Origin: a virus
DNA length: 64,000 nucleotides
Virus genome (UHGV): UHGV-1579991
Reading direction: 5' to 3' (one strand)
Part shown: piece by piece, positions 38,839 to 63,535 of the stretch
Numbering within the stretch: the first letter of the stretch is position 1
Layout: each line of letters starts with the position of its first letter
Notes under the pieces: model-generated
What the model saw: only the letters and a program-made list of their open reading frames with translations
What the model was told of the DNA's origin: nothing
Databases searched by the model: none
Program-made: the position numbers and the translations under genes

Positions 38839-39342
38839 TCATCGTTTTCGATGGAAGACTTTGAATTTGTATCGTAACGTTCTGTCATTATCTGTGCATG
38901 TGTATAGTGCAGACTCAGATTTTTTAGTCCACATTCGCCAATTGACTGCAGGAAATCGAACGTCGCCCTCAACATAATTGTCAATCATCGTCAAGTACAT
39001 TCTGTCTGCATAAATCATTGCTTCTTCAAACAACTTAGAACCGCCGATGATAAACATGTTAGACGCAAATGCAGACTTGCAATATGCTATTGCATTGGCT
39101 AGCGTGCTAAATACGAAATAGTCGCTTGTTGGCTGCAATGTAGAGCTTATAACAATGTTAATTCTGTCAGGCAAGGGTTTGCAATTCATCGACTCAAAAG
39201 TCTTACGACCCATGATGACAATGTGATTCTTTGTGAGTTTCTTGAAGTGCTGCAAGTCATATGGAATATGCCAGGGCAAATCACCATTGCGACCTATGAC
39301 ATTGTTATTTGATACTGCTGCTATGATATTGATGTATTGCAT
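38839..39342 (-). CDS. folA: dihydrofolate reductase, 167 aa
   Basis: IAAVSNNNVIGRNGDLPWHIPYDL, VIMGRKTFES and IIGGSKLFEE motifs typical of DHFR. Confidence 0.85.
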   Translation of the reverse strand: MQYINIIAAVSNNNVIGRNGDLPWHIPYDLQHFKKLTKNHIVIMGRKTFESMNCKPLPDRINIVISSTLQPTSDYFVFSTLANAIAYCKSAFASNMFIIGGSKLFEEAMIYADRMYLTMIDNYVEGDVRFPAVNWRMWTKKSESALYTCTDNDRTLRYKFKVFHRKR

Positions 39343-47523: not shown

Positions 47524-47919
47524 TTATCGGTTCTTTGAAAATGAAACTTGCGTTGATTGCTGTGGTCGAACATCAACAAACACTGAATCTACTGCGTCAA
47601 ACTTAAGCGTAGCAAGTGAATCAATTGTTTGCCTTGCTTTTTGCAAATTGCGTGCTTTGATGCCTGATACTGTTGCAGATTTTTCAAGCAGATATGCATC
47701 ACGAGGCGTCCAGTAGCGAGCCTGCCAACGCATATGCATAGAGTCGACAACCAAATTTTCTGCTGCAGCATCAATAATTGCTGCAGTTGATTGCTGAGTT
47801 GCATCAAGTCGTTGCTGCAATACTGCTAATTGCTTTGTGTGCTGCTGTTGATGTTTGAATACTATGCTGATTGCTCCAAATAAGAGAAACCATGCAATAA
47901 AACGCAAAAATGACTTCAT
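47524..47919 (-). CDS. hypothetical membrane-anchored protein, 131 aa
   Basis: N-terminal hydrophobic segment FIAWFLLFGAISIVF. Confidence 0.5.
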   Translation of the reverse strand: MKSFLRFIAWFLLFGAISIVFKHQQQHTKQLAVLQQRLDATQQSTAAIIDAAAENLVVDSMHMRWQARYWTPRDAYLLEKSATVSGIKARNLQKARQTIDSLATLKFDAVDSVFVDVRPQQSTQVSFSKNR

Positions 47920-48890
47920 GATTGCTGCACGAATTTTGAGAGCTCGAATGACAATGCGAGCATTGTTATGAATTGGTCAATTGACTGTTTAGACTCTACA
48001 CTGTATTTGTGAGCTGCAATGACAATGTCTCCAAGTCGTGCAACAAAACCAGGCGTATTCTTTGAGAGCTTTGCATAGCACCAATTTGCAAAGTCAGTTG
48101 AGAGAGCATTGATGACTTCAGTTTCACGACCTTTGTATTGTGACAATGTTTTGTAAAATTCACGCGGGTCTTTGCATGCGACAATGAAGTCATACAGTTC
48201 TTCAAACTTTGCTGACATGCCCTTTGTGACATGCTCAAGCGTTATATGACGCTCACCTTGATTGAAGACAAAGTAGCAAATGTTCAGAATTTTGCGGAAG
48301 TCTGGATAGTTATCTTGAATTAGCTTGATGAGCGCTTCTTTTTCAATGGTGCATTCATTTTCCTTCAAGATATTGTAGACGCGAACCATGCACTTCTTCA
48401 TCAACTGTTCTGCAATATCATCAGAAAAGTCGAATGACAGCATTTTGAGACGAGATTGAGCAATTGATGCATCAATACGGTCTGGATAATTGCAAGTTGC
48501 AATGAAAAACGCAATGCCTGCAAACTCTTCAATGGTGCCTCGCAAAGCCATCTGGCTTTGTGTCGATAGATAATCCATTTCATCAAGCAGCACAACCTTT
48601 ACGCCACTTGACGACAATGACATATGCTGACAGAATTCTGAAATTGTGTTGCGAACTGTGTCAATGCCAGAATTCTTTGAGCAGTTGATTTGCAGAATTG
48701 AACGTCTATCAGTCCACTTCAATGCCAATGCTCTTGCTGCGGTTGTTTTTCCACTTCCTGGTGCTCCTGCGAACAAATAATTTTGCGGCTGACCATTAAA
48801 TGCCGCAGCATAATCATCAGGCACAATTAACTCTTCGACTTTTGTTGGCCTGTAGCGTTCTAACCAAGTTCTATCTTTAAGGGATGCCAT
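47916..48890 (-). CDS. clamp loader subunit (RFC / gp44-like AAA+ ATPase), about 324 aa; start trimmed
   Basis: WLERYRPTKVEEL ... LFAGAPGSGKTT (Walker A) ... LLDEMDYL (Walker B); start moved to ATG 48890 (MASLKD). Confidence 0.75.
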   Translation of the reverse strand: MASLKDRTWLERYRPTKVEELIVPDDYAAAFNGQPQNYLFAGAPGSGKTTAARALALKWTDRRSILQINCSKNSGIDTVRNTISEFCQHMSLSSSGVKVVLLDEMDYLSTQSQMALRGTIEEFAGIAFFIATCNYPDRIDASIAQSRLKMLSFDFSDDIAEQLMKKCMVRVYNILKENECTIEKEALIKLIQDNYPDFRKILNICYFVFNQGERHITLEHVTKGMSAKFEELYDFIVACKDPREFYKTLSQYKGRETEVINALSTDFANWCYAKLSKNTPGFVARLGDIVIAAHKYSVESKQSIDQFITMLALSFELSKFVQQS

Positions 48891-48934
48891 TTGTTGTTTG
48901 TTGATATATGTAAAAATATTGTACAACAATACTG

Positions 48935-50126
48935 TCATTTTTGCACAGCATGGCCGCAATCGTACACAGGCACATAACCAGCGTCAAGCATTTGTTGTTC
49001 ATCTACTTCTGCAGTATGCGCAGCATACAGTCGCTTCTTGTAATTCCACCAATGTTTTCTAATAGTCAATTTGTCATTGCATATGACAGGATTTTTTGAC
49101 AAGTCTGTGCTATCTACACGTTCATTGCATAAATGCTGTCGTATGATTTCTACAACGTCATCAGGGTTATCCCAATCCCATATTGTAATGCATATGTAGC
49201 CTGCTGTAAGTGCTGCTTGAGTTTTTCTAAAATGTCTATCATTAGGAATTGGCAAATTGCGTTTAGATTTGCCAATTGCATATGCAAAGCCAAATGCAGC
49301 ATTATGTGAAAACGATGGGTTGATTTCTATTAGTAGATGCTTATAATGCAAATCATAAGAAAATCTGCCAATATTGACATCATCAAATGTGCAATCAATG
49401 TTAAGTCGTTGCAGCAAAAAATCATGCCACCAACGATTAACCGTTGTAATGGTGCGCCCATTAGCATGCCGACAACGCTCAGTCATAACAAACCAAGGTA
49501 CACCATAGCGTTCAAGATTTGTTTGCATGCGTTTTGCAGTGCCACCATATTCATCACCGTATCGTAATCTGCGTGTATGAACTGCTTTTAATGGGTTGCC
49601 AGCAGAATTGCCATATCGTAGCATCTTTGTTTGCTGCGCTTTAGCAGTAATTACACCATGGTCAGGATAGTGTTCGCGTATTGTTTGCTGCACTTTAGTA
49701 GCATTCCATGTGCGATAGCCGTACTTGTGTAATTTTGTTTGCTGGGCTTTTTGCATGTTGTTATAATATGGGTCGCCATAGCGTTCTTCTTTAATTTTGC
49801 ACATTAACTGTTGGTCGCCAAATGCATTGCCATATTTTGCAAGTTTTGTTGCCTTAAATTTAGTCATGTCGCCAAGCCCATTGCCATATCTTTCTCGTTT
49901 TGTTGCGACACCTTTGTTTGTAAATTCTTTTTAATTGCGCAGTGTTTTCAACACCATATTTACGCAAATTGCTTATACGACTGTTATATGTACGTTTGCA
50001 AATTGTGTATTGTGAGTAGCGTTTATGCTGAGGTCGTTCTTTAGACGCAGTTTGCAATATCACATCTCTTTCCTCTTCAAGTTCTTTTATGCGAGCTTCA
50101 AGAGCTTCTCCAGTTAATGGTTCCAT
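48935..50126 (-). pseudogene. repeat-rich (RYG-x-G) homing-endonuclease-like gene, paralog 3, split by a frameshift
   Basis: Two overlapping ORFs (49860-50126 and 48935-49867); homology to paralog 2 continues across a T5 run at about 49928-49932 only if one base is removed. Confidence 0.6.
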
Positions 50127-56339: not shown

Positions 56340-56597
56340 TTAATTGTTGAGATACTGCTGAAGCTCGGCTTCTGTTGCAAGTCTACATTGCTTAATATTG
56401 AACACTGTCATAATATGACAACTCTTGCATTTATGCCAAATTTCAGCAACAGCAGTTTGTGTGTTCTTTGGCAATGAGTGTCTGTACTTGACAATGTCTG
56501 TAGTACCGCAGCATTTACATGTGCCAAGCACTACATACAATTTTGAGTTAGTCGCGCTCAATTGTGACATGTCTAACTTCTGCTTCTTCATAGCCAT
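56340..56597 (-). CDS. small zinc-ribbon-like protein, 85 aa
   Basis: CKCCG ... CKSCH motifs. Confidence 0.5.
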   Translation of the reverse strand: MAMKKQKLDMSQLSATNSKLYVVLGTCKCCGTTDIVKYRHSLPKNTQTAVAEIWHKCKSCHIMTVFNIKQCRLATEAELQQYLNN

Positions 56598-57969
56598 GCT
56601 CTCTTAGCTTTTCAATGAGCGCTTCAACATCTGCTCGATAAGTATCGCGATTGTCGGAACGTTCAACTATTTTGTACTCTTTCTTAAGTTCTACAATCTT
56701 TGCTTTAAGCTTTTTCTGTTCATCTTGAGTCAATCTGCTGACTGCAATTTCAAGAACTTTGTGATTGATTGAATGCTCATCAAGAATAGACTTGACTTGC
56801 TTAGTCGTCATTTTGTGCAGCACAATGACTTCGTCAAGCACAAGTTGAATGAACTTCATGATGTCTTCATACCACTGAATTGTAGTACGAATGTCTTCAA
56901 GTCGTTTTTGCTTGCGAATTTCATAGAATTGCAAACGCCACTCGACAAATCGCATAATGAGTGAACCGACTGTTTTGTATCGACGAATCTTGTCATCGAA
57001 GTCAATGACAGTCAAGTTGTCACGTTCAATTCTGCAGAACATTGCAAGAGTCCAGTATAATGAATCTTTTGCAAGCAACTCAGCAAGTTTTGCTTTCGTA
57101 AACTTTATCTCATACAGAATCTTGTCTTTGTGAGAGTAATTTGTCCATGCTTCAATAATGTCACGGTCAAGCAGCATATTGAGATGGTTTTCATAGCCAT
57201 CGAATGTGTTGTTGTATGGGATTGCAGTTACATTGACTGTAGTGTCATCAACAACTTCCATTCGACCATGATGCTCATATACACCATTGACAAGTCGCCA
57301 TTCTCCTTGCAAGCCTTTGACATATGGCGTAATTTTACGTTCAGAAATATCTTCGCCATCAAGAGCATCAATAACAGCATTGCAAACTTCAATTGGATTA
57401 CGATTGATAATTGTGCTTGAGTAGCCAACCGCAATGCCCATAATTGAATTTAGCAAAATTGTGGGCACAATTGGCAGATAAAATTGCGGCTCAACTTCAA
57501 TGCCCTCTTGCCAACGATTTGTAAGCAACTCATTGTCTTTCATAAGCAACTCAAATGCATCTGACAATCGAACAAAGATGTATCGAGGCGCACCTGCATA
57601 TGGGCTATAGAACGTACCAAACTGGCCTTCACCAATAAAATATGGAATGTTCTGCTTAAAGTCCTGAGACATGATTGTGATATTGCCCTCAAGACTTGTC
57701 TGGCCGTGTTCGTAACCACCCTCTGCTTTTACATAGCCTGCAAATGCACCTACAGTTTGCTTAACGCCACCTTTAAGACGCTTGAGTGCAACATACATGA
57801 TTTTTCGTGCAGTAGGCTTAAAGCCATCACGAACATCAGGTATCGCACGTTCAAATGCTGTGTGTAATGCGTACTCTTTATATCGAGTATTCAAAAATTC
57901 CGCAATGGAAATTTGAATATCTTGTTCTGTCAATGGTTCTGTGTAAACTTCTTGTTTTCGTCGTGCCAT
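56548..57969 (-). CDS. type IIA topoisomerase A-subunit-like protein (GyrA / ParC / T4 gp52-like), about 473 aa; start trimmed
   Basis: AFERAIPDVRDGFKPTARKIMY and FGTFYSPYAGAPRYIFVRL (active-site Tyr context) match GyrA N-terminal motifs; track start is TTG, first ATG at 57969. Confidence 0.75.
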   Translation of the reverse strand: MARRKQEVYTEPLTEQDIQISIAEFLNTRYKEYALHTAFERAIPDVRDGFKPTARKIMYVALKRLKGGVKQTVGAFAGYVKAEGGYEHGQTSLEGNITIMSQDFKQNIPYFIGEGQFGTFYSPYAGAPRYIFVRLSDAFELLMKDNELLTNRWQEGIEVEPQFYLPIVPTILLNSIMGIAVGYSSTIINRNPIEVCNAVIDALDGEDISERKITPYVKGLQGEWRLVNGVYEHHGRMEVVDDTTVNVTAIPYNNTFDGYENHLNMLLDRDIIEAWTNYSHKDKILYEIKFTKAKLAELLAKDSLYWTLAMFCRIERDNLTVIDFDDKIRRYKTVGSLIMRFVEWRLQFYEIRKQKRLEDIRTTIQWYEDIMKFIQLVLDEVIVLHKMTTKQVKSILDEHSINHKVLEIAVSRLTQDEQKKLKAKIVELKKEYKIVERSDNRDTYRADVEALIEKLREHGYEEAEVRHVTIERD

Positions 57970-58016
57970 TGTAGCTAATTTGATTTTATTTCCTATATTA
58001 TTGTACAACGATGTTG

Positions 58017-60883: not shown

Positions 60884-61258
60884 GCAAATATATTTTTGTT
60901 TGTATATGTACATAAAAGAGCAAGTTCTCCACATTGAGAACTTGCTCAGCTGACCTGTTACCAGGTGAAAGCGTGGTGCAGCACCTTGTGCTGCAATGGC
61001 TATGCTGCCATCGCCATAACGGGCTGAGCATTGCCCAGCATCATTACACGACCAGCTGCATTAAGCGTACGCTTTGCTTTGTTGAAAAATTTGCCAGTTA
61101 TCTGGTATCTGCACATCTATTCAAGCGACCTACTATGCAATCAAATGCCTGTCGAGCCCAATGTTTGAGCAGTTGTTTGTCAGATGCTCAGCTGACTGCA
61201 GTCTTTCTGAGTGTATCAAGTTCAGCGATTCTGCATCTTTGCTAAATGGCAATGGTTC

Positions 61259-61300
61259 AGGTGGACTCGCCGAGAATCGAACTCGGGTCTTACATAGCGC
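61259..61300 (-). other. tRNA 3'-half-like element (T-arm plus acceptor 3' strand) with no 5' partner
   Basis: CCGAG/TTCGATT/CTCGG T-arm followed by CGAGTCC-A-CC; no complementary 5' acceptor strand was found upstream. Confidence 0.2.
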
Positions 61301-61342
61301 ATCCTTGACTTGGTCCTGTAAACAGGGTTGTCAACATGCATT

Positions 61343-61413
61343 GCAATACGACAGGACTCGAACCTGCGACCTCGGATTGGACGTCCGCGCTCTTACCGCT
61401 GAGCTACGTATTC
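61343..61413 (-). tRNA. tRNA-like gene with canonical D- and T-arms but non-canonical anticodon arm (possible pseudo-tRNA)
   Basis: GCTC/AGCGGTAA/GAGC D-arm and GCAGG/TTCGAGT/CCTGT T-arm; acceptor stem 6 of 7 pairs; the region GTCCAAT could not be folded into a standard anticodon stem-loop by hand. Confidence 0.35.
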
Positions 61414-61506
61414 TTATCAATTGACTGCACTGCAATGCAATCAATCGTGCCAATGATATTTGACACGCATAATTGCAGTTATGCGTAACAATTCAAATGT
61501 CATTTG

Positions 61507-61579
61507 AGCCAACTGCAGGAATCGAACCTGTAACCTGCTGAGTACAAATCAGCTGCTCTACCAATTGAGCTAAGTTGGC
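61507..61579 (-). tRNA. tRNA-Thr (anticodon TGT)
   Basis: Hand-folded cloverleaf: 7-bp acceptor stem GCCAACT/AGTTGGC, D-arm GCTC..GAGC, anticodon stem GCTGA/TCAGC with loop TTTGTAC, T-loop TTCGATT; CCA not encoded. Confidence 0.8.
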
Positions 61580-61584
61580 ATAAA

Positions 61585-61658
61585 GTCGTTGGGCCATTGC
61601 AACCCAAACCTATCATCTTTGCCTAACCAAAGATGCAAGCGCTCTCTTACACCACGAC
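61585..61658 (-). other. tRNA-like element with irregular arms (possible degenerate tRNA)
   Basis: Acceptor-like pairing GTCGTGG/CCAACGAC (6 of 7) and a long hairpin CATCTTTG/GTTAGG/CAAAGATG; T-loop atypical. Confidence 0.2.
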
Positions 61659-61661
61659 TTG

Positions 61662-61733
61662 TAGCCGAACTTGGAGTCGAACCAAGCTTTCGAGAATGAA
61701 AATCTCGCGTCCTAACCGATAGACGAAACGGCC
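61662..61733 (-). tRNA. tRNA-Glu (anticodon TTC), with two mismatches in the acceptor stem
   Basis: D-stem GTCT/GGAC, anticodon stem CGAGA/TCTCG with loop TTTTCAT, T-arm CTTGG/TTCGACT/CCAAG; acceptor 5 of 7 pairs. Confidence 0.55.
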
Positions 61734-61916
61734 AAGAGCAGTTCAAGTCTGCAGCATTGAACTGCGGAAACAATGCCTGTACGGGCAACCAATTGTGCAG
61801 ATACAGCGACATTGCAAAATCACACCGAACCAAGTTTGTGGCTCTTCTGTCTCATAAAAACAAGTAATCATTACACTTGGCACCAATGATTTTGATGTAA
61901 AAATCGGTGTGTTACG

Positions 61917-62001
61917 CGGAGAGTAAGGGATTCGAACCCCTGGTACGTTGCCGTACAGTGGTTTTCAAGACCACCGCCATCGACCGCTCGGCCAACTCTC
62001 C
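61917..62001 (-). tRNA. tRNA-Ser (anticodon TGA), type II with long variable arm
   Basis: Acceptor GGAGAGT/ACTCTCC, D-arm GCCGAGCGGTCGATGGC, anticodon stem GTGGT/ACCAC with loop CTTGAAA, long variable arm, T-loop TTCGAAT. Confidence 0.8.
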
Positions 62002-62194
62002 ATAAAACATTGCATAAGCATTCTTATCTCTTGATGAGGCCAAGTAGCTAATTTGGCAAGTTTGTTATATCTATCGTGACTGTTGCAGTTTGTTGTCACT
62101 CAATACACAAAACTTTCGAACATTCATTGACAACACTGCAATATCGCTTTTTAAGCTCAGCCATCAATGTATTTATGCAATGTATAACAATTCG

Positions 62195-62276
62195 TAGCCA
62201 AACCGGGACTTGAACCCAGACTCCTAATGGAACAACATTTTGAGTGTTGCGTGTCTACCAATTCCACCATTTGGCC
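62195..62276 (-). tRNA. tRNA-Leu (anticodon CAA), type II
   Basis: Acceptor GGCCAAA/TTTGGCT, anticodon stem CAACA/TGTTG with loop CTCAAAA, 13-nt variable arm, T-loop TTCAAGT. Confidence 0.75.
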
Positions 62277-62373
62277 ATTTGCAAATGCAAGCTGTTTCAC
62301 AACTGTTTGCATTTGCATTTGCATTGTTTAACACACTAAAATATGATTCATCTAATCAAAAACCAGAGAATTG

Positions 62374-62446
62374 TCGAGAATGTGCGATTTGAACGCCAAT
62401 TATACGTCCCAAACGTATCGTGTTACCGGATTACACTACATTCTCG
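62374..62446 (-). tRNA. tRNA-Pro (anticodon TGG), with irregular D-arm and T-stem
   Basis: Acceptor CGAGAAT/ATTCTCG perfect; anticodon stem ATACG/CGTAT with loop TTTGGGA; T-loop TTCAAAT. Confidence 0.6.
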
Positions 62447-62453
62447 TTAATTG

Positions 62454-62524
62454 TTGAACTGTCTGGACTCGAACCAGAAATATATCATCCAAAGTGATAT
62501 GTGTTACCATTACACCACAGCTCA
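62454..62524 (-). tRNA. tRNA-Gln (anticodon TTG)
   Basis: Acceptor TGAGCTG/CAGTTCA (one G-T pair), D-stem GTGT/ACAC, anticodon stem TATCA/TGATA with loop CTTTGGA, T-arm TCTGG/TTCGAGT/CCAGA. Confidence 0.8.
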
Positions 62525-62629
62525 GTATATAATGTATGCTTGTGTTATTATGTATATTTGTTAGTAATTATATGAATAATATACTACATTTATTTATGAT
62601 TTGCACCATATACTGCAACTTTGTATCAC

Positions 62630-62992
62630 TTAATTGCACAATGTGACTCTGTCTTTAAGTTTATGCATGTGTAGCACGTTTGCAATATCTACTGGCAACT
62701 TATATGACCCATCAGATATTGCAAATGCTGCAAGTTGCATAATCAAATCTGCATTGTCTGTAAGAACTTCTGCAAATTTACTGGCATCACAACATGCGTA
62801 ATACTTGCGAATTGTTGCTGCTTGCTTTTGTATGATGACACGCACATATACAGTTTGAGCAATGACTGCGCGTCGTAAATCAACTTTGACAATACACATA
62901 GTGTCATCGTCGTCTTTCACGACATGTCGCCATACGCCGTCATTGCAAATGCCATGCTGTGCTATAAGTGTTTTAGTGATATCAGACATCAT
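62630..62992 (-). CDS. hypothetical protein, 120 aa
   Basis: ORF downstream of the tRNA cluster. Confidence 0.55.
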   Translation of the reverse strand: MMSDITKTLIAQHGICNDGVWRHVVKDDDDTMCIVKVDLRRAVIAQTVYVRVIIQKQAATIRKYYACCDASKFAEVLTDNADLIMQLAAFAISDGSYKLPVDIANVLHMHKLKDRVTLCN

Positions 62993-63037: not shown

Positions 63038-63535
63038 TCATTCGATGTTACCAGATAATATCCGAATGGCATCCAATGCATTTTCTCGTATCAAGCCAAA
63101 CTTACCTATAACTTGAACAAAATGTTTGTCATTTTCAAATGTTGAGTCATCAAGAATGACATATTGTTTGATGTTATGTTTCTCAACAAGCGCAGGCACT
63201 GCAGCAAATCTGTCATGAAAGCCCTCAGCATAAATTGATGGCAACAAATAGCCTGGCATATTGCGCTTAAGCCACATTATCTTGCAGTCATCAAGAATAG
63301 CCCAACTGCTTATTAAGCATATTGCACCAACATCTGACATTTGACAAATGTATCTCAACCAGCCAACACAACGTTCATCGAACAATTGGCCAAACTCATC
63401 TTTTGACTGCACATCCATGTTTGCACGATGCTTTGACATGTGCAACATATTGAGATTATCTTGGCTATTCAGAACACCATCAATGTCCAAGAATATCACT
63501 TTGTCAGGCCAAATCACTTTGTTTGTTGTGTTCAT
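63038..63535 (-). CDS. HAD-superfamily hydrolase-like protein, 165 aa (phosphatase or nucleotidase type)
   Basis: Motif I FLDIDGVLN (DxDG) and C-terminal VILDDS. Confidence 0.55.
   Translation of the reverse strand: MNTTNKVIWPDKVIFLDIDGVLNSQDNLNMLHMSKHRANMDVQSKDEFGQLFDERCVGWLRYICQMSDVGAICLISSWAILDDCKIMWLKRNMPGYLLPSIYAEGFHDRFAAVPALVEKHNIKQYVILDDSTFENDKHFVQVIGKFGLIRENALDAIRILSGNIE

What the first reader, a model, noticed from the sequence alone, without database searches (positions are those of the whole stretch)
61250..62530. tRNA cluster mixes canonical tRNAs with tRNA-like elements that do not fold normally
Six genes fold by hand into acceptable cloverleaves (Thr-TGT, Glu-TTC, Ser-TGA, Leu-CAA, Pro-TGG, Gln-TTG), none encoding CCA. 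Three further elements have tRNA hallmarks but are defective: 61343-61413 has good D- and T-arms but no foldable anticodon stem; 61259-61300 is a T-arm plus 3' acceptor strand only; 61585-61658 has an acceptor-like stem and an 8-bp hairpin in place of an anticodon arm. Stable hairpins also sit just 5' of tRNA-Glu (about 61738-61765) and tRNA-Leu (about 62281-62316). These could be decaying tRNAs, processing signals or tRNA-derived regulatory RNAs.
Basis: partly seen in the sequence, partly recalled or inferred. Interest (0 to 1): 0.45.

Follow-up and report, generated by a model that had tools for sequence, protein, structure and literature searches.

The report
Phage tRNA operon with two-piece tmRNA
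The "defective tRNAs" in this phage gene cluster are three different things: an odd but recognisable glycine tRNA, one half of a split ribosome-rescue RNA (two-piece tmRNA), and a tRNA-shaped leftover that has lost its anticodon loop. The kinds are known, but this tmRNA is unusually divergent.

Summary
The sequence observations are largely right; the single interpretation ("decaying tRNAs") fits only one of the three elements.

- **Operon:** window 62524-60912 (minus strand) reads as one RNA operon. It holds seven tRNAs, one tRNA-shaped element and a circularly permuted (two-piece) tmRNA, and ends in a strong intrinsic terminator.
- **61343-61413:** ARAGORN and Rfam both call it tRNA-Gly(UCC) (44 bits, threshold 29). 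It is still atypical: G1·G72, a four-pair anticodon stem and G33.
- **61259-61300:** this is the T-arm and 3' acceptor strand of the tmRNA acceptor piece. The matching 5' strand GGGCUCG lies 100 nt downstream and gives a G3·U70 pair. A 25-codon tag (…PVMAMAA) follows. Three sequence types in related contigs keep 42 pairs, 19 of them changed on both sides. The tag is conserved at the protein level.
- **61583-61660:** neither tool calls it a tRNA. It keeps a 7+5 acceptor/T stack and a D-like stem. An 8-bp hairpin with a hypervariable, even inverted, tip replaces the anticodon arm. It is probably derived from tRNA-Gln, and its function is unknown.
- **Spacer hairpins:** real, and conserved in relatives.

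Phage two-piece tmRNAs are already described. This one is a divergent new member, below Rfam's threshold.

The parts
62453..62524 (-). tRNA-Gln(UUG), first gene of the operon
   Evidence: ARAGORN; Rfam 64.4 bits. A different allele sits at this position in L001, L002 and L005.
62373..62446 (-). tRNA-Pro(UGG), with a shortened T stem
   Evidence: ARAGORN; Rfam 49.9 bits with a non-standard T-stem pair. L001 carries a canonical allele instead.
62280..62317 (-). Conserved hairpin ending 3 nt before the 5' end of tRNA-Leu
   Evidence: Fold. In 12 relatives, 14 pairs are kept, with five one-sided G-C to G-U changes and one break, while the sequence just upstream is replaced or has indels.
62194..62276 (-). 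tRNA-Leu(CAA)
   Evidence: ARAGORN; Rfam 54.2 bits.
62002..62193 (-). Structured Leu-Ser spacer closed by an 11-bp stem that ends 6 nt before tRNA-Ser
   Evidence: Fold z = -2.06. Consensus structure in 9 relatives, with two pairs changed on both sides.
61916..62001 (-). tRNA-Ser(UGA), canonical 7/5 form
   Evidence: ARAGORN; Rfam 56.5 bits.
61734..61915 (-). Structured Ser-Glu spacer, including the hairpin 61738-61765 that ends 4 nt before tRNA-Glu
   Evidence: Fold z = -2.36. The helices are conserved in 9 relatives while the central segment is replaced in L037, L038 and L040.
61661..61733 (-). tRNA-Glu(UUC), with two U·U mismatches at the base of the acceptor stem
   Evidence: ARAGORN; Rfam 46.4 bits with mismatches flagged.
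61583..61660 (-). tRNA-shaped, non-decoding element. 7-bp closing stem 61660-61654 with 61589-61583; D-like stem 61652-61649 with 61642-61639; 8-bp hairpin 61635-61628 with 61621-61614 and variable tip 61627-61622; T-like arm 61606-61602 with 61594-61590.
   Evidence: No tRNA call. Fold z = -3.1 to -3.6. 99.4% of cells paired in 7 distinct sequences, with one compensatory A-U to C-G change and two U·G to U-A changes. Tip variants and an exact 24-nt inversion. 11-nt identity to tRNA-Gln.
61506..61579 (-). tRNA-Thr(UGU)
   Evidence: ARAGORN; Rfam 67.7 bits.
61414..61505 (-). Thr-Gly spacer with two stable hairpin domains (61504-61452 and 61447-61418)
   Evidence: Fold z = -4.24, 0 of 200 shuffles as stable. 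31 pairs kept in 8 relatives; all changes are one-sided and compatible.
61343..61413 (-). tRNA-Gly(UCC), atypical: G1·G72, four Watson-Crick pairs plus G·A in the anticodon stem, loop CGUCCAA with G33
   Evidence: ARAGORN; Rfam 44.1 bits, gathering score 29. Nearly invariant in relatives; the only change is U4 to C in L005.
61260..61342 (-). tmRNA acceptor piece: 5' strands of the connector helices, a small hairpin 61326-61315, T arm 61286-61270, 3' acceptor strand CGAGUCC 61269-61263, discriminator A and CC 61262-61260
   Evidence: ARAGORN permuted tmRNA. Rfam tmRNA_permuted alignment. Cofold and helix list. Covariation table.
61160..61259 (-). Intervening segment of the permuted tmRNA gene; it has to be removed to free the 3' end of the acceptor piece and the 5' end of the coding piece
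   Evidence: It lies between the ACC end and the GGGCUCG 5' strand. Largely conserved in L004.
60912..61159 (-). tmRNA coding piece: 5' acceptor strand GGGCUCG 61159-61153, connector-helix 3' strands 61140-61110, hairpin 61105-61094, tag frame, two post-tag hairpins 60994-60978 and 60966-60953, terminator
61000..61077 (-). Tag reading frame, GCA resume codon to UAG stop: AKRTLNAAGRVMMLGNAQPVMAMAA*. ARAGORN starts it 6 codons earlier, at 61095.
   Evidence: Compared with L004: 10 identical, 10 synonymous and 6 non-synonymous codons, plus one in-frame codon indel; PVMAMAA is invariant.
60912..60947 (-). Intrinsic terminator: 12-bp stem, 6-nt loop, UUUUAU
   Evidence: Terminator scan. The stem is kept by compensatory changes in L004.

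Best explanation
Window 62524-60912 (minus strand) is one phage RNA operon. It most likely runs from an AT-rich promoter region upstream of tRNA-Gln to the terminator at 60947-60912.

**Contents.** It encodes seven tRNAs (Gln, Pro, Leu, Ser, Glu, Thr, Gly), one tRNA-shaped non-decoding element, and a circularly permuted ssrA gene.

**Processing (inferred from established tRNA and tmRNA biology).** Host RNase P cuts at each tRNA 5' end and at G61159. 3' nucleases trim the trailers. The CCA-adding enzyme completes the 3' ends, since none is fully encoded.

**The tmRNA.**
- Removing the 100-nt intervening segment leaves two RNAs: an ~83-nt acceptor piece and an ~250-nt coding piece.
- These pair through the acceptor stem and a long connector helix to form an alanine-accepting tRNA-like domain with G3·U70.
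- With host SmpB it would enter stalled ribosomes and add AKRTLNAAGRVMMLGNAQPVMAMAA, marking the peptide for proteolysis.
- During infection this would keep ribosomes recycling.

1. An idiosyncratic but recognisable tRNA-Gly(UCC).
2. The tmRNA acceptor piece.
3. A probable tRNA-Gln derivative whose anticodon arm has been rebuilt into a perfect 8-bp hairpin. It cannot decode. I think it most likely survives as a folded spacer that RNase P and 3' nucleases can still cut, so that it punctuates the transcript between tRNA-Glu and tRNA-Thr.

**The spacer hairpins.** Those ending 3-6 nt before each tRNA most likely fix processing sites and protect 3' ends.

**Shown versus inferred.** Shown: gene identities, structures, covariation and tag conservation. 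Inferred: the single transcript, every processing step, charging, SmpB use and all functions.

**What the confidence covers.** The figure given applies to the identities of the genes and to the tmRNA reading. My confidence in the proposed role of the tRNA-shaped element and of the hairpins is much lower, about 0.4.
For: **tRNAs.** ARAGORN and Rfam agree on all seven.

**tmRNA.**
- ARAGORN calls a permuted tmRNA at 60909-61351.
- Rfam tmRNA_permuted aligns 61000-61320 end to end (30.7 bits, E 6.5e-4 in a 2-kb search).
- The homologue in L004 scores 35.1 bits. Its neighbouring protein is only 48% identical to the window's.
- The acceptor stem GGGCUCG/CGAGUCC has G3·U70 followed by ACC.
- Sequence types A and C fold to the same architecture. 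Type B's own minimum-energy fold draws the inner connector helices differently, and its homologous helices were assigned by hand.
- Across the eight helices, 42 pairs are standard in all three types, and 19 have changes on both sides.
- Tag: 10 synonymous against 6 non-synonymous codon differences, an in-frame indel and an invariant C-terminal PVMAMAA.
- A strong terminator follows.

**tRNA-shaped element.**
- It is not called as a tRNA.
- The fold is more stable than shuffles, z = -3.1 to -3.6.
- Outside the hairpin tip, the changes in relatives are one compensatory pair (A-U to C-G in L037), two U·G to U-A changes (L001) and one T-loop change.
- It shares an 11-nt identity with the 5' end of the cluster's tRNA-Gln, plus a collinear TTTGGTT at the former anticodon loop.

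**Spacer hairpins.** They are conserved while neighbouring spacer sequence is replaced.

**Precedent.** Phage-encoded two-piece tmRNAs are documented (PMC9004378).
Against: - The tmRNA is below Rfam's gathering score (30.7 against 47). It is also far below the alpha and beta subfamily thresholds (tested on L004 and L006 only).
- No pseudoknots were demonstrated.
- CCA is not encoded in the window (ACCU).
- Types B and C have a 6-nt T loop. ARAGORN misses type B, and type B's inner connector helix is imperfect.
- I chose the covarying helices from per-sequence energy folds, which favours finding pairs.
- No SmpB was found among the ten small ORFs scanned with Pfam. The rest of the ~175-kb genome was not available.
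- For the tRNA-shaped element the relatives are 90-100% identical, so the evidence rests on about six substitutions.
- The thermodynamic optimum for that element is a rod (-25.1 kcal/mol), not the cloverleaf (-19.7 to -19.9).
- The element is absent from some relatives (L040, L034, L042), so it is dispensable.
- No expression data exist for anything here.
Confidence: 0.8

Rival explanations
1. The tRNA-shaped element at 61583-61660 is simply a tRNA pseudogene: a duplicated tRNA-Gln inactivated by a hairpin-forming mutation. It has no function of its own and is kept only because too little time has passed.
For: - It is similar to tRNA-Gln.
- It cannot decode, because it has a 6-nt loop on an 8-bp stem.
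- It is missing from L040, L034 and L042.
- A second, tRNA-Leu-like element with a destroyed anticodon arm exists in L037, which suggests a recurrent mutational process.
- The perfect inverted repeat and the inverted tip are signatures of DNA-level palindrome mutation, which can keep the arms identical without selection.
Against: - All changes outside the hairpin tip respect the cloverleaf, including one two-sided compensatory change.
- The element is as conserved as the functional tRNAs beside it, while other spacer segments are replaced.
Confidence: 0.35
2. The tRNA-shaped element is a selected tRNA mimic: a decoy, sponge or regulator that engages host tRNA-binding factors (tRNA-targeting defence nucleases, modification enzymes) through its acceptor/T body without taking part in translation.
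For: - It preserves a 12-bp acceptor/T stack, and its substitutions are compatible with the structure.
- A second anticodon-less tRNA-like element occurs in a relative.
- Phage tRNAs are known to counter tRNA-targeting defences (PMC10264068 and PMC11555353, listed).
- A gene with a HAD domain typical of RNA-repair proteins is conserved just upstream of the cluster.
Against: - There is no direct evidence.
- The tip of the hairpin can be substituted, lengthened or inverted, so any function cannot depend on that sequence.
- The T loop UGCAAUG departs from the tRNA consensus.
- The element is dispensable in some relatives.
Confidence: 0.12
3. All three odd elements are decaying tRNAs.
For: The cluster's tRNAs carry many irregularities: G1·G72 and G33 in Gly, U·U pairs in Glu, and a short T stem in Pro.
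Against: - 61343-61413 passes the tRNA model and is nearly invariant in relatives.
- 61259-61300 pairs with a 5' strand 100 nt downstream and belongs to a covarying tmRNA with a conserved tag.
Confidence: 0.03
4. The permuted ssrA gene is a non-functional relic, or acts only through its tRNA-like domain (for example to interfere with host tmRNA, as reported for the tag-less form of mycobacteriophage DS6A).
For: - Its Rfam score is below threshold.
- Type B alleles have a 6-nt T loop and a weaker inner connector helix, and ARAGORN misses them.
- The tRNA-like domain is exchanged as a cassette between otherwise near-identical genes.
- The DS6A precedent is described in PMC11915505.
Against: - The tag frame is under protein-level constraint between the window and L004.
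- 19 pairs are kept through two-sided changes, including helices outside the tRNA-like domain and after the tag.
- G3·U70 is retained in every type.
Confidence: 0.08

Closest known systems
Two-piece (circularly permuted) tmRNA of Alphaproteobacteria, some Betaproteobacteria and cyanobacteria, and of marine/aquatic myophages such as Methylophilales phage Melnitz and pelagimyophages (PMC9004378; PMC3985003; Rfam RF04321)
   Same: - The gene order is permuted: T arm and 3' acceptor strand first, then an intervening segment, then the 5' acceptor strand and the tag frame.
- G3·U70 is present.
- The tag ends in hydrophobic residues followed by Ala-Ala.
- The tRNA-like domain is assembled from two RNAs through the acceptor stem and a connector helix.
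- It is encoded by a large phage next to tRNA genes.
   Different: - It scores below the Rfam gathering threshold (30.7-35.1 against 47) and matches the alpha and beta subfamily models only weakly.
- No similar sequence was found in 50,697 GenBank phage records at blastn sensitivity. Two exact-pattern scans of 185,579 species-representative genomes also found nothing.
- The tag is long (25 codons).
- Simple hairpins follow the tag where pseudoknots are usual.
- No glutamine riboswitch like Melnitz's was detected.
- It sits at the end of a tRNA operon.
- The related contigs appear to come from non-marine samples (inferred from sample names only).
Bacteriophage T4 tRNA gene cluster with its stable RNAs of unknown function (species 1 and 2, rnaC/rnaD); from my own knowledge, not checked here
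   Same: - A phage operon of tRNAs lacking encoded CCA, processed by host enzymes.
- The tRNA set overlaps (Gln, Leu, Gly, Pro, Ser, Thr).
- It contains additional small structured non-tRNA RNAs.
   Different: - No sequence similarity was tested or seen.
- The extra element here is a 78-nt cloverleaf with an 8-bp hairpin in place of the anticodon arm.
- T4 has no tmRNA.
Pseudo-tRNAs and tRNA-like RNAs that do not decode (for example tRNA-Other of Bacillus cereus and non-proteinogenic tRNA-Gly of staphylococci); from my own knowledge
   Same: A tRNA-derived cloverleaf with altered D and T loops, located among real tRNA genes.
   Different: - Those molecules keep a 7-nt anticodon loop and are aminoacylated.
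- The element here has no usable anticodon loop, and nothing is known about whether it is charged.
Small hairpin-loop inversions at inverted repeats, well known in plastid non-coding DNA; from my own knowledge
   Same: The 24-nt tip between the 8-bp arms is an exact reverse complement in L043 compared with L035.
   Different: Here the hairpin sits inside a tRNA-shaped transcribed element of a phage.

Membership tests
tRNA (Rfam RF00005), applied to 61343-61413 | Covariance-model score at or above the gathering score, and an independent ARAGORN call | tested here: met
   44.1 bits against 29. ARAGORN calls tRNA-Gly(tcc).
tRNA (Rfam RF00005), applied to 61343-61413 | Canonical details: 1-72 pair, 5-bp anticodon stem, U33 | tested here: not met
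   G1·G72 is flagged in the alignment. Reading the sequence gives four Watson-Crick pairs plus G·A, and the loop CGUCCAA with G at position 33.
tRNA (Rfam RF00005), applied to 61583-61660 | Covariance-model or ARAGORN detection | tested here: not met
   No RF00005 match at E<=10 in a 2-kb search, and no ARAGORN call.
tRNA (Rfam RF00005), applied to 61583-61660 | 7-nt anticodon loop on a 5-bp stem | tested here: not met
   An 8-bp stem with a 6-nt loop. The loop differs in sequence and length among relatives and is inverted in one.
tRNA (Rfam RF00005), applied to 61583-61660 | 12-bp acceptor/T coaxial stack with a 7-nt T loop | tested here: inconclusive
   A 7-bp closing stem plus a 5-bp T-like stem can be drawn and are kept in 7 sequences. 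However, the loop is UGCAAUG rather than UUCRANY, and the energy optimum is a rod.
Permuted (two-piece) tmRNA (Rfam RF04321) | Permuted order: T arm and 3' acceptor strand upstream of the 5' acceptor strand, together forming a 7-bp acceptor stem | tested here: met
   CGAGUCC at 61269-61263 pairs with GGGCUCG at 61159-61153. The stem is kept through three two-sided changes in types B and C.
Permuted (two-piece) tmRNA (Rfam RF04321) | G3·U70 alanine identity pair | tested here: met
   G·U at the third pair in all three sequence types.
Permuted (two-piece) tmRNA (Rfam RF04321) | Tag reading frame after the tRNA-like domain, ending in hydrophobic residues plus Ala-Ala and a stop codon | tested here: met
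   …PVMAMAA*. Against L004 there are 10 synonymous and 6 non-synonymous codon differences.
Permuted (two-piece) tmRNA (Rfam RF04321) | Score at or above Rfam's gathering threshold | tested here: not met
   30.7 bits in the window and 35.1 in L004, against 47. No match in the gathering-mode scan.
Permuted (two-piece) tmRNA (Rfam RF04321) | Pseudoknots PK1 and PK2 flanking the tag frame | not tested
   Only nested hairpins were examined. A hairpin lies at 61105-61094 before the tag, and two after it.
Permuted (two-piece) tmRNA (Rfam RF04321) | Processing into two RNAs, alanylation, SmpB binding and trans-translation | not testable with these tools
   Needs RNA end mapping and biochemistry. No SmpB was seen among ten small ORFs.
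Alpha- and beta-proteobacterial tmRNA subfamilies (RF01849, RF01850); the cyanobacterial model RF01851 was part of the scan but gave no listed match | Subfamily covariance model at or above its gathering score | tested here: not met
   Beta: 20.7 and 17.6 bits against 84. Alpha: 15.5 bits against 50. Only the tRNA-like domain matched. These scores are from L004 and L006; in the window, lower-scoring same-clan matches were suppressed.

The most novel reading that the evidence does not exclude
This phage lineage repeatedly converts spare tRNA genes into anticodon-less, tRNA-shaped RNAs. Two cases were seen: a tRNA-Gln derivative in the window, and a tRNA-Leu derivative in L037. On this reading they are kept by selection as mimics of the tRNA body. 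They would act as decoys or sponges for host tRNA-targeting defences or tRNA-binding enzymes, with a hairpin tip that is free to vary and even invert.

A second, separate novel reading is that this ssrA gene is an independent (fourth) origin of tmRNA gene permutation, carried by a phage outside the alpha, beta and cyanobacterial host lineages.
Probability: 0.12. Interest if true: 0.7.

Novelty: new member of a known kind. Interest (0 to 1): 0.42.

Why it matters
- It shows that a "half tRNA" in a phage tRNA cluster can be the visible part of a permuted tmRNA that standard thresholds miss. Such genes are probably under-annotated in phage genomes.
- This example extends phage two-piece tmRNAs to a very divergent, largely unannotated ~175-kb phage lineage. 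It offers natural allelic cassettes of the tRNA-like domain, which could be used to test what the domain needs in order to work.
- The tRNA-shaped element and its L037 counterpart are candidate cases of tRNA genes being turned into non-decoding RNAs. That would bear on how phages use tRNA-like molecules against host defences, but only if expression and function are shown.
- The identification of the tRNAs and the tmRNA is solid, but the kinds themselves are ordinary.

Tried and rejected
- **blastn against GenBank phages:** the 2-kb region gave only tRNA-sized matches, at most 5% coverage.
- **Relatives through neighbouring proteins:**
  - The 239-aa neighbour has only two protein clusters in 5.8 billion sequences, both on contigs too short to use.
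  - Relatives came instead from the 161-aa and 120-aa neighbours.
- **Scans for more relatives:**
  - The metagenome scan with a tRNA-Thr 37-mer returned 21 loci. Only L015 was related; the rest were unrelated bacterial or phage tRNA-Thr genes.
  - The IMG/VR scan with a conserved 17-mer from the tag region gave only chance matches apart from the two known contigs.
  - Two scans of species-representative genomes for the tmRNA found nothing.
- **Copies of the tRNA-shaped element:** a covariance model built from it found no other copy in the window or in 18 loci.
- **Rod versus cloverleaf:** the rod-like minimum-energy fold is 5 kcal/mol more stable and fits the alignment almost as well (99.0% against 99.4% paired). 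I prefer the cloverleaf only because the L037 change C to A breaks a rod pair but falls in the T loop, and because the L001 changes turn two U·G pairs of the D-like stem into U-A. This preference is weak.
- **Terminator reading of 61653-61632:** rejected. The terminator-like hit lies inside the tRNA-shaped element, is weak, and has three more RNA genes downstream with no convincing promoter.
- **ARAGORN's tag start (GGC at 61095):** set aside in favour of GCA at 61077. The six codons between differ non-synonymously in L004 (GKFFNK against GNFINK). This choice is an inference.
- **MAFFT alignment of the tmRNA (A1):** it misplaces the T arm by one column between types, so pair counts were done on hand-defined helices.
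- **Papers:** PMC516066 (third lineage of two-piece tmRNA) is not held in the library.


Full report
**1. What is in the window**

All RNA genes here lie on the minus strand. ARAGORN finds seven tRNAs:

| tRNA | coordinates |
|---|---|
| Gln-UUG | 62453-62524 |
| Pro-UGG | 62373-62446 |
| Leu-CAA | 62194-62276 |
| Ser-UGA | 61916-62001 |
| Glu-UUC | 61661-61733 |
| Thr-UGU | 61506-61579 |
| Gly-UCC | 61343-61413 |

It also finds a permuted tmRNA at 60909-61351. Rfam's tRNA model scores all seven tRNAs above its gathering score of 29, from 67.7 bits (Thr) down to 44.1 bits (Gly).

None of the tRNAs encodes CCA (read). Six of the seven have C after the discriminator.

**2. Element 1 (61343-61413) is a tRNA, though an untidy one**

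Both tools call it tRNA-Gly(UCC).

Read base by base, it has several irregularities:
- a G1·G72 mismatch;
- an anticodon stem of four Watson-Crick pairs plus G·A;
- the loop CGUCCAA, which puts G where U33 is nearly universal.

The gene is nearly invariant in relatives: the only change seen is U4 to C in L005. Other tRNAs of the cluster are also irregular, with two U·U pairs in Glu and a shortened T stem in Pro.

**3. Element 2 (61259-61300) is the acceptor piece of a two-piece tmRNA**

*Anatomy.*
- The T arm CCGAG-UUCGAUU-CUCGG and the 3' acceptor strand CGAGUCC-A-CC end at 61260.
- The complementary 5' strand GGGCUCG lies 100 nt further along the transcript, at 61159-61153. Together they give a 7-bp acceptor stem with G3·U70, the alanine identity pair.
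- A reading frame follows, ending …PVMAMAA-UAG at 61000.
- After it come two hairpins and a 12-bp intrinsic terminator at 60947-60912.

*Model scores.* Rfam's tmRNA_permuted model aligns 61000-61320 over its full length, but at 30.7 bits, below its gathering score of 47 (E = 6.5e-4 in a 2-kb search).

*Comparison settles the question.* Related contigs carry three sequence types of this gene:

| type | loci | acceptor stem | T stem |
|---|---|---|---|
| A | window, L001, L015, L034, L042 | GGGCUCG / CGAGUCC | CCGAG / CUCGG |
| B | L002, L005, L006 | GGGGGUG / CACCUCC | CCGCC / GGCGG |
| C | L004 | GGGGGUG / CACCUCC | CCGGC / GCCGG |

- L004 is the only distant relative. Its neighbouring protein is 48% identical to the window's.
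- Folding the acceptor piece together with the start of the coding piece gives the same architecture in types A and C. Type B's own minimum-energy fold draws the inner connector helices differently, and I assigned its homologous helices by hand. The shared architecture is:
  - the acceptor stem and T arm;
  - a segmented connector helix;
  - a small hairpin in the acceptor piece (CCUG/CAGG, UUGC/GCAA, UCAU/AUGA in the three types);
  - an outer helix between the very 5' end of the acceptor piece and the coding piece.
- In eight homologous helices all 42 pairs are standard in all three types, and 19 have changes on both sides. I chose these helices from energy folds, which biases towards pairing. 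Even so, 19 two-sided changes with no break is strong.
- The tag is conserved as protein. Window against L004 gives 10 identical, 10 synonymous and 6 non-synonymous codons, one in-frame codon indel, and an unchanged C-terminal PVMAMAA.
- The six codons that ARAGORN adds upstream change non-synonymously. I therefore place the resume codon at GCA 61077, as an inference.

*Why it must be two pieces.* Because the 3' acceptor end lies upstream of the 5' end in the gene, the RNA can only be charged after the intervening 100 nt (61259-61160) are cut away. That necessarily yields two RNAs.

**4. Element 3 (61583-61660) is tRNA-shaped but cannot decode**

*Detection.* Neither ARAGORN nor the tRNA model detects it, even at E<=10. 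It fills the whole Glu-Thr spacer and folds better than shuffles (z = -3.1 to -3.6).

*Fold.* With its flanking bases it can be drawn as a cloverleaf of tRNA dimensions:
- 7-bp closing stem AAGUCGU/ACGACUU;
- D-like stem GUGU/GCGC;
- a perfect 8-bp hairpin CAUCUUUG/CAAAGAUG with a 6-nt tip;
- a T-like arm UGGGU-UGCAAUG-GCCCA.

The energy optimum is instead a rod, 5 kcal/mol more stable.

*Variation in relatives.* Ten relatives carry the element.
- Outside the hairpin tip the only changes are:
  - a two-sided A-U to C-G change at the outer closing pair (L037);
  - two U·G to U-A changes in the D-like stem (L001);
  - one change in the T-like loop (L037), which would break a pair of the rod fold.
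- Paired cells are 99.4% for the cloverleaf and 99.0% for the rod.
- The tip of the 8-bp hairpin is hypervariable: GUUAGG, GUUAGA, GCUAUG, GCGCAUCA, and an 18-nt insertion in L035.
- The 24-nt tip of L043 is the exact reverse complement of L035's. This is a DNA inversion between the 8-bp arms. No function can therefore depend on the tip sequence.

*Likely origin.* The 5' part shares 11 consecutive bases (TCGTGGTGTAA) with the same region of the cluster's tRNA-Gln (shuffle p about 0.005-0.009). It also shares a collinear TTTGGTT where tRNA-Gln has its anticodon loop. The element is probably a tRNA-Gln copy whose anticodon arm was rebuilt into a palindrome.

*Related observations.*
- A second such case exists in a relative. 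L037:3321-3403 is a tRNA-Leu-like insert (z = 5.3) with CGAC-GUCA-GUCG in place of the anticodon arm, also not detected by either tool.
- The window element is absent from L040, L034 and L042, where other sequence and ORFs take its place. It is therefore dispensable.
- A covariance model built from it finds no other copy.

**5. Hairpins and spacers**

Every spacer is strongly structured:
- Thr-Gly z = -4.24;
- Pro-Leu z = -2.2;
- Ser-Glu z = -2.36;
- Leu-Ser z = -2.06.

Each ends in a stable helix 3-6 nt before the next tRNA. Meanwhile adjacent spacer sequence is replaced or gains and loses bases. The other spacers behave the same way. At this low divergence the result is suggestive, not proof.

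**6. How it most likely works**

*Shown:* gene identities, folds, covariation and tag conservation.

*Inferred from standard tRNA and tmRNA biology* (PMC3985003):
- One transcript runs from the AT-rich region upstream of tRNA-Gln to the terminator. Only weak promoter-like matches were found.
- RNase P cuts at each tRNA 5' end and at G61159. 3' nucleases and the CCA-adding enzyme finish the 3' ends.
- The two tmRNA pieces anneal, are charged with alanine and, with SmpB, rescue stalled ribosomes and tag the peptides.
- The tRNA-shaped element and the spacer helices most plausibly act as folded punctuation that fixes cleavage sites and shields 3' ends.
- A neutral pseudogene (my estimate 0.35) or a selected tRNA mimic (0.12) cannot be excluded.

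**7. Comparison with what is known**

- Phage-encoded two-piece tmRNAs are documented. A survey found 53 among 18,146 phage genomes, 50 of them from marine or aquatic samples (PMC9004378).
- The current tmRNA database lists 79 phage sequences, and its authors state that tmRNA_permuted retrieves all permuted entries (PMC11915505).
- The gene here falls below that model's threshold and matches the alpha and beta subfamily models only in the tRNA-like domain (tested on L004 and L006).
- It has no blastn-level relative among GenBank phages. Two exact-pattern scans of the genome collection also found nothing.
- It is therefore a divergent new member of a known kind.
- The host phage is itself remote from described phages. 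The best topoisomerase II match is 39% (Chryseobacterium phage MA9V-1), and nine of ten neighbouring ORFs tested have no PHROG family.
- The sample labels of related contigs (ZELL14, COST17, MCDO18) look to me like human-gut studies. This comes from memory of naming conventions and was not verified.

**8. Limits**

- There is no expression data.
- Only one truly divergent relative (L004) covers the tmRNA, and none covers the tRNA-shaped element.
- Pseudoknots were not analysed.
- SmpB was not looked for beyond ten small ORFs.

Noticed in passing
L002:4061-4143, also L015 and L034 (same slot as window 61916-62001): In some near-identical relatives the canonical tRNA-Ser(UGA) is replaced, at the same position and with the same anticodon, by a selenocysteine-tRNA-like form. 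It has an 8-bp acceptor stem, a 4-bp T stem, a 6-bp D stem and a long variable arm. Rfam tRNA-Sec gives 41.8 bits (gathering 47), and ARAGORN does not call it. Such (8/4) tRNA-Ser genes are known from phage tRNA clusters (PMC5389517).
   Followed up: partly
L034:1994-2079, L042:2968-3053, L043:8244-8329 (slot of window 61506-61579): Some relatives carry an 86-nt tRNA with the Thr anticodon UGU but a long variable arm and U73, in place of the ordinary 74-nt tRNA-Thr. A type-II tRNA body with a threonine anticodon is unusual, and its amino-acid identity is unclear.
   Followed up: no
L005:1305-2144, L043:8506-9345, partial in L006 (between the homologues of window 61343 and 61342): A 279-aa ORF with a DUF559 / restriction-endonuclease-like domain (Pfam 9e-6) is inserted exactly between tRNA-Gly and the tmRNA gene in some relatives. 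Other unannotated ORFs replace tRNA-Glu and the tRNA-shaped element in L034, L042 and L040. This looks like homing-endonuclease traffic and could drive the allele mosaicism.
   Followed up: partly
window 61260-61342 and 61110-61159 compared with L002, L005, L006: The tRNA-like domain of the tmRNA (both halves) is exchanged as a cassette between genes that are otherwise nearly identical in the intervening segment and the tag. Type B has a 6-nt T loop, and ARAGORN does not detect it.
   Followed up: partly
window 62373-62524 compared with L001, L002, L005: tRNA-Gln and tRNA-Pro exist as sharply different alleles in genomes that are about 99% identical over the rest of the cluster. The window's Gln allele was not seen in any relative examined. 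L001 has a canonical Pro where the window has one with a short T stem.
   Followed up: partly
L037:3321-3403: An 83-nt insert in the Leu-Ser spacer folds as a cloverleaf with a normal T loop (UUCGAGU) and resembles tRNA-Leu (z = 5.3). It has a 4-bp/4-nt hairpin in place of the anticodon arm, and neither ARAGORN nor Rfam calls it.
   Followed up: partly
L035:2237-2335 compared with L043:8145-8243 (homologues of window 61614-61635): The 24-nt tip of the 8-bp hairpin is an exact reverse complement between the two contigs, which indicates a DNA inversion between the inverted-repeat arms. The L035 orientation gives a much more stable RNA hairpin (-18.1 against -9.9 kcal/mol).
   Followed up: yes
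whole window 1-64000: GATC occurs 3 times where about 179 are expected, and CTAG 3 times where about 67 are expected. TGCA occurs 1097 times against about 232 expected from base composition, and hexamers built on TTGCA/TGCAA dominate. This suggests restriction avoidance and a pervasive sequence bias or motif.
   Followed up: partly
window 63038-63535 (minus strand) and 62630-62992 (minus strand): The gene upstream of the 120-aa ORF that adjoins the cluster matches the HAD domain of "Swiss Army Knife" RNA-repair proteins (Pfam PF18143, 2e-14). This HAD gene followed by the 120-aa ORF is conserved directly upstream of the tRNA cluster in all relatives examined.
   Followed up: partly
window 38839-39342, 47916-48959, 56548-58008 and neighbours: Recognisable genes include dihydrofolate reductase, a clamp loader and a topoisomerase II subunit. 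Nine of ten other neighbouring ORFs tested have no PHROG family, and the best phage match for the topoisomerase is 39% identical. The phage lineage is poorly described.
   Followed up: no
window 60975-60966 and 61074-61068: The start of the tag frame (AAAGCGU) is complementary to ACGCUUU in the conserved single-stranded stretch CACGCUUUCA after the tag. Both are unchanged in L004, so there is no covariation to judge whether this long-range pairing forms (read).
   Followed up: no
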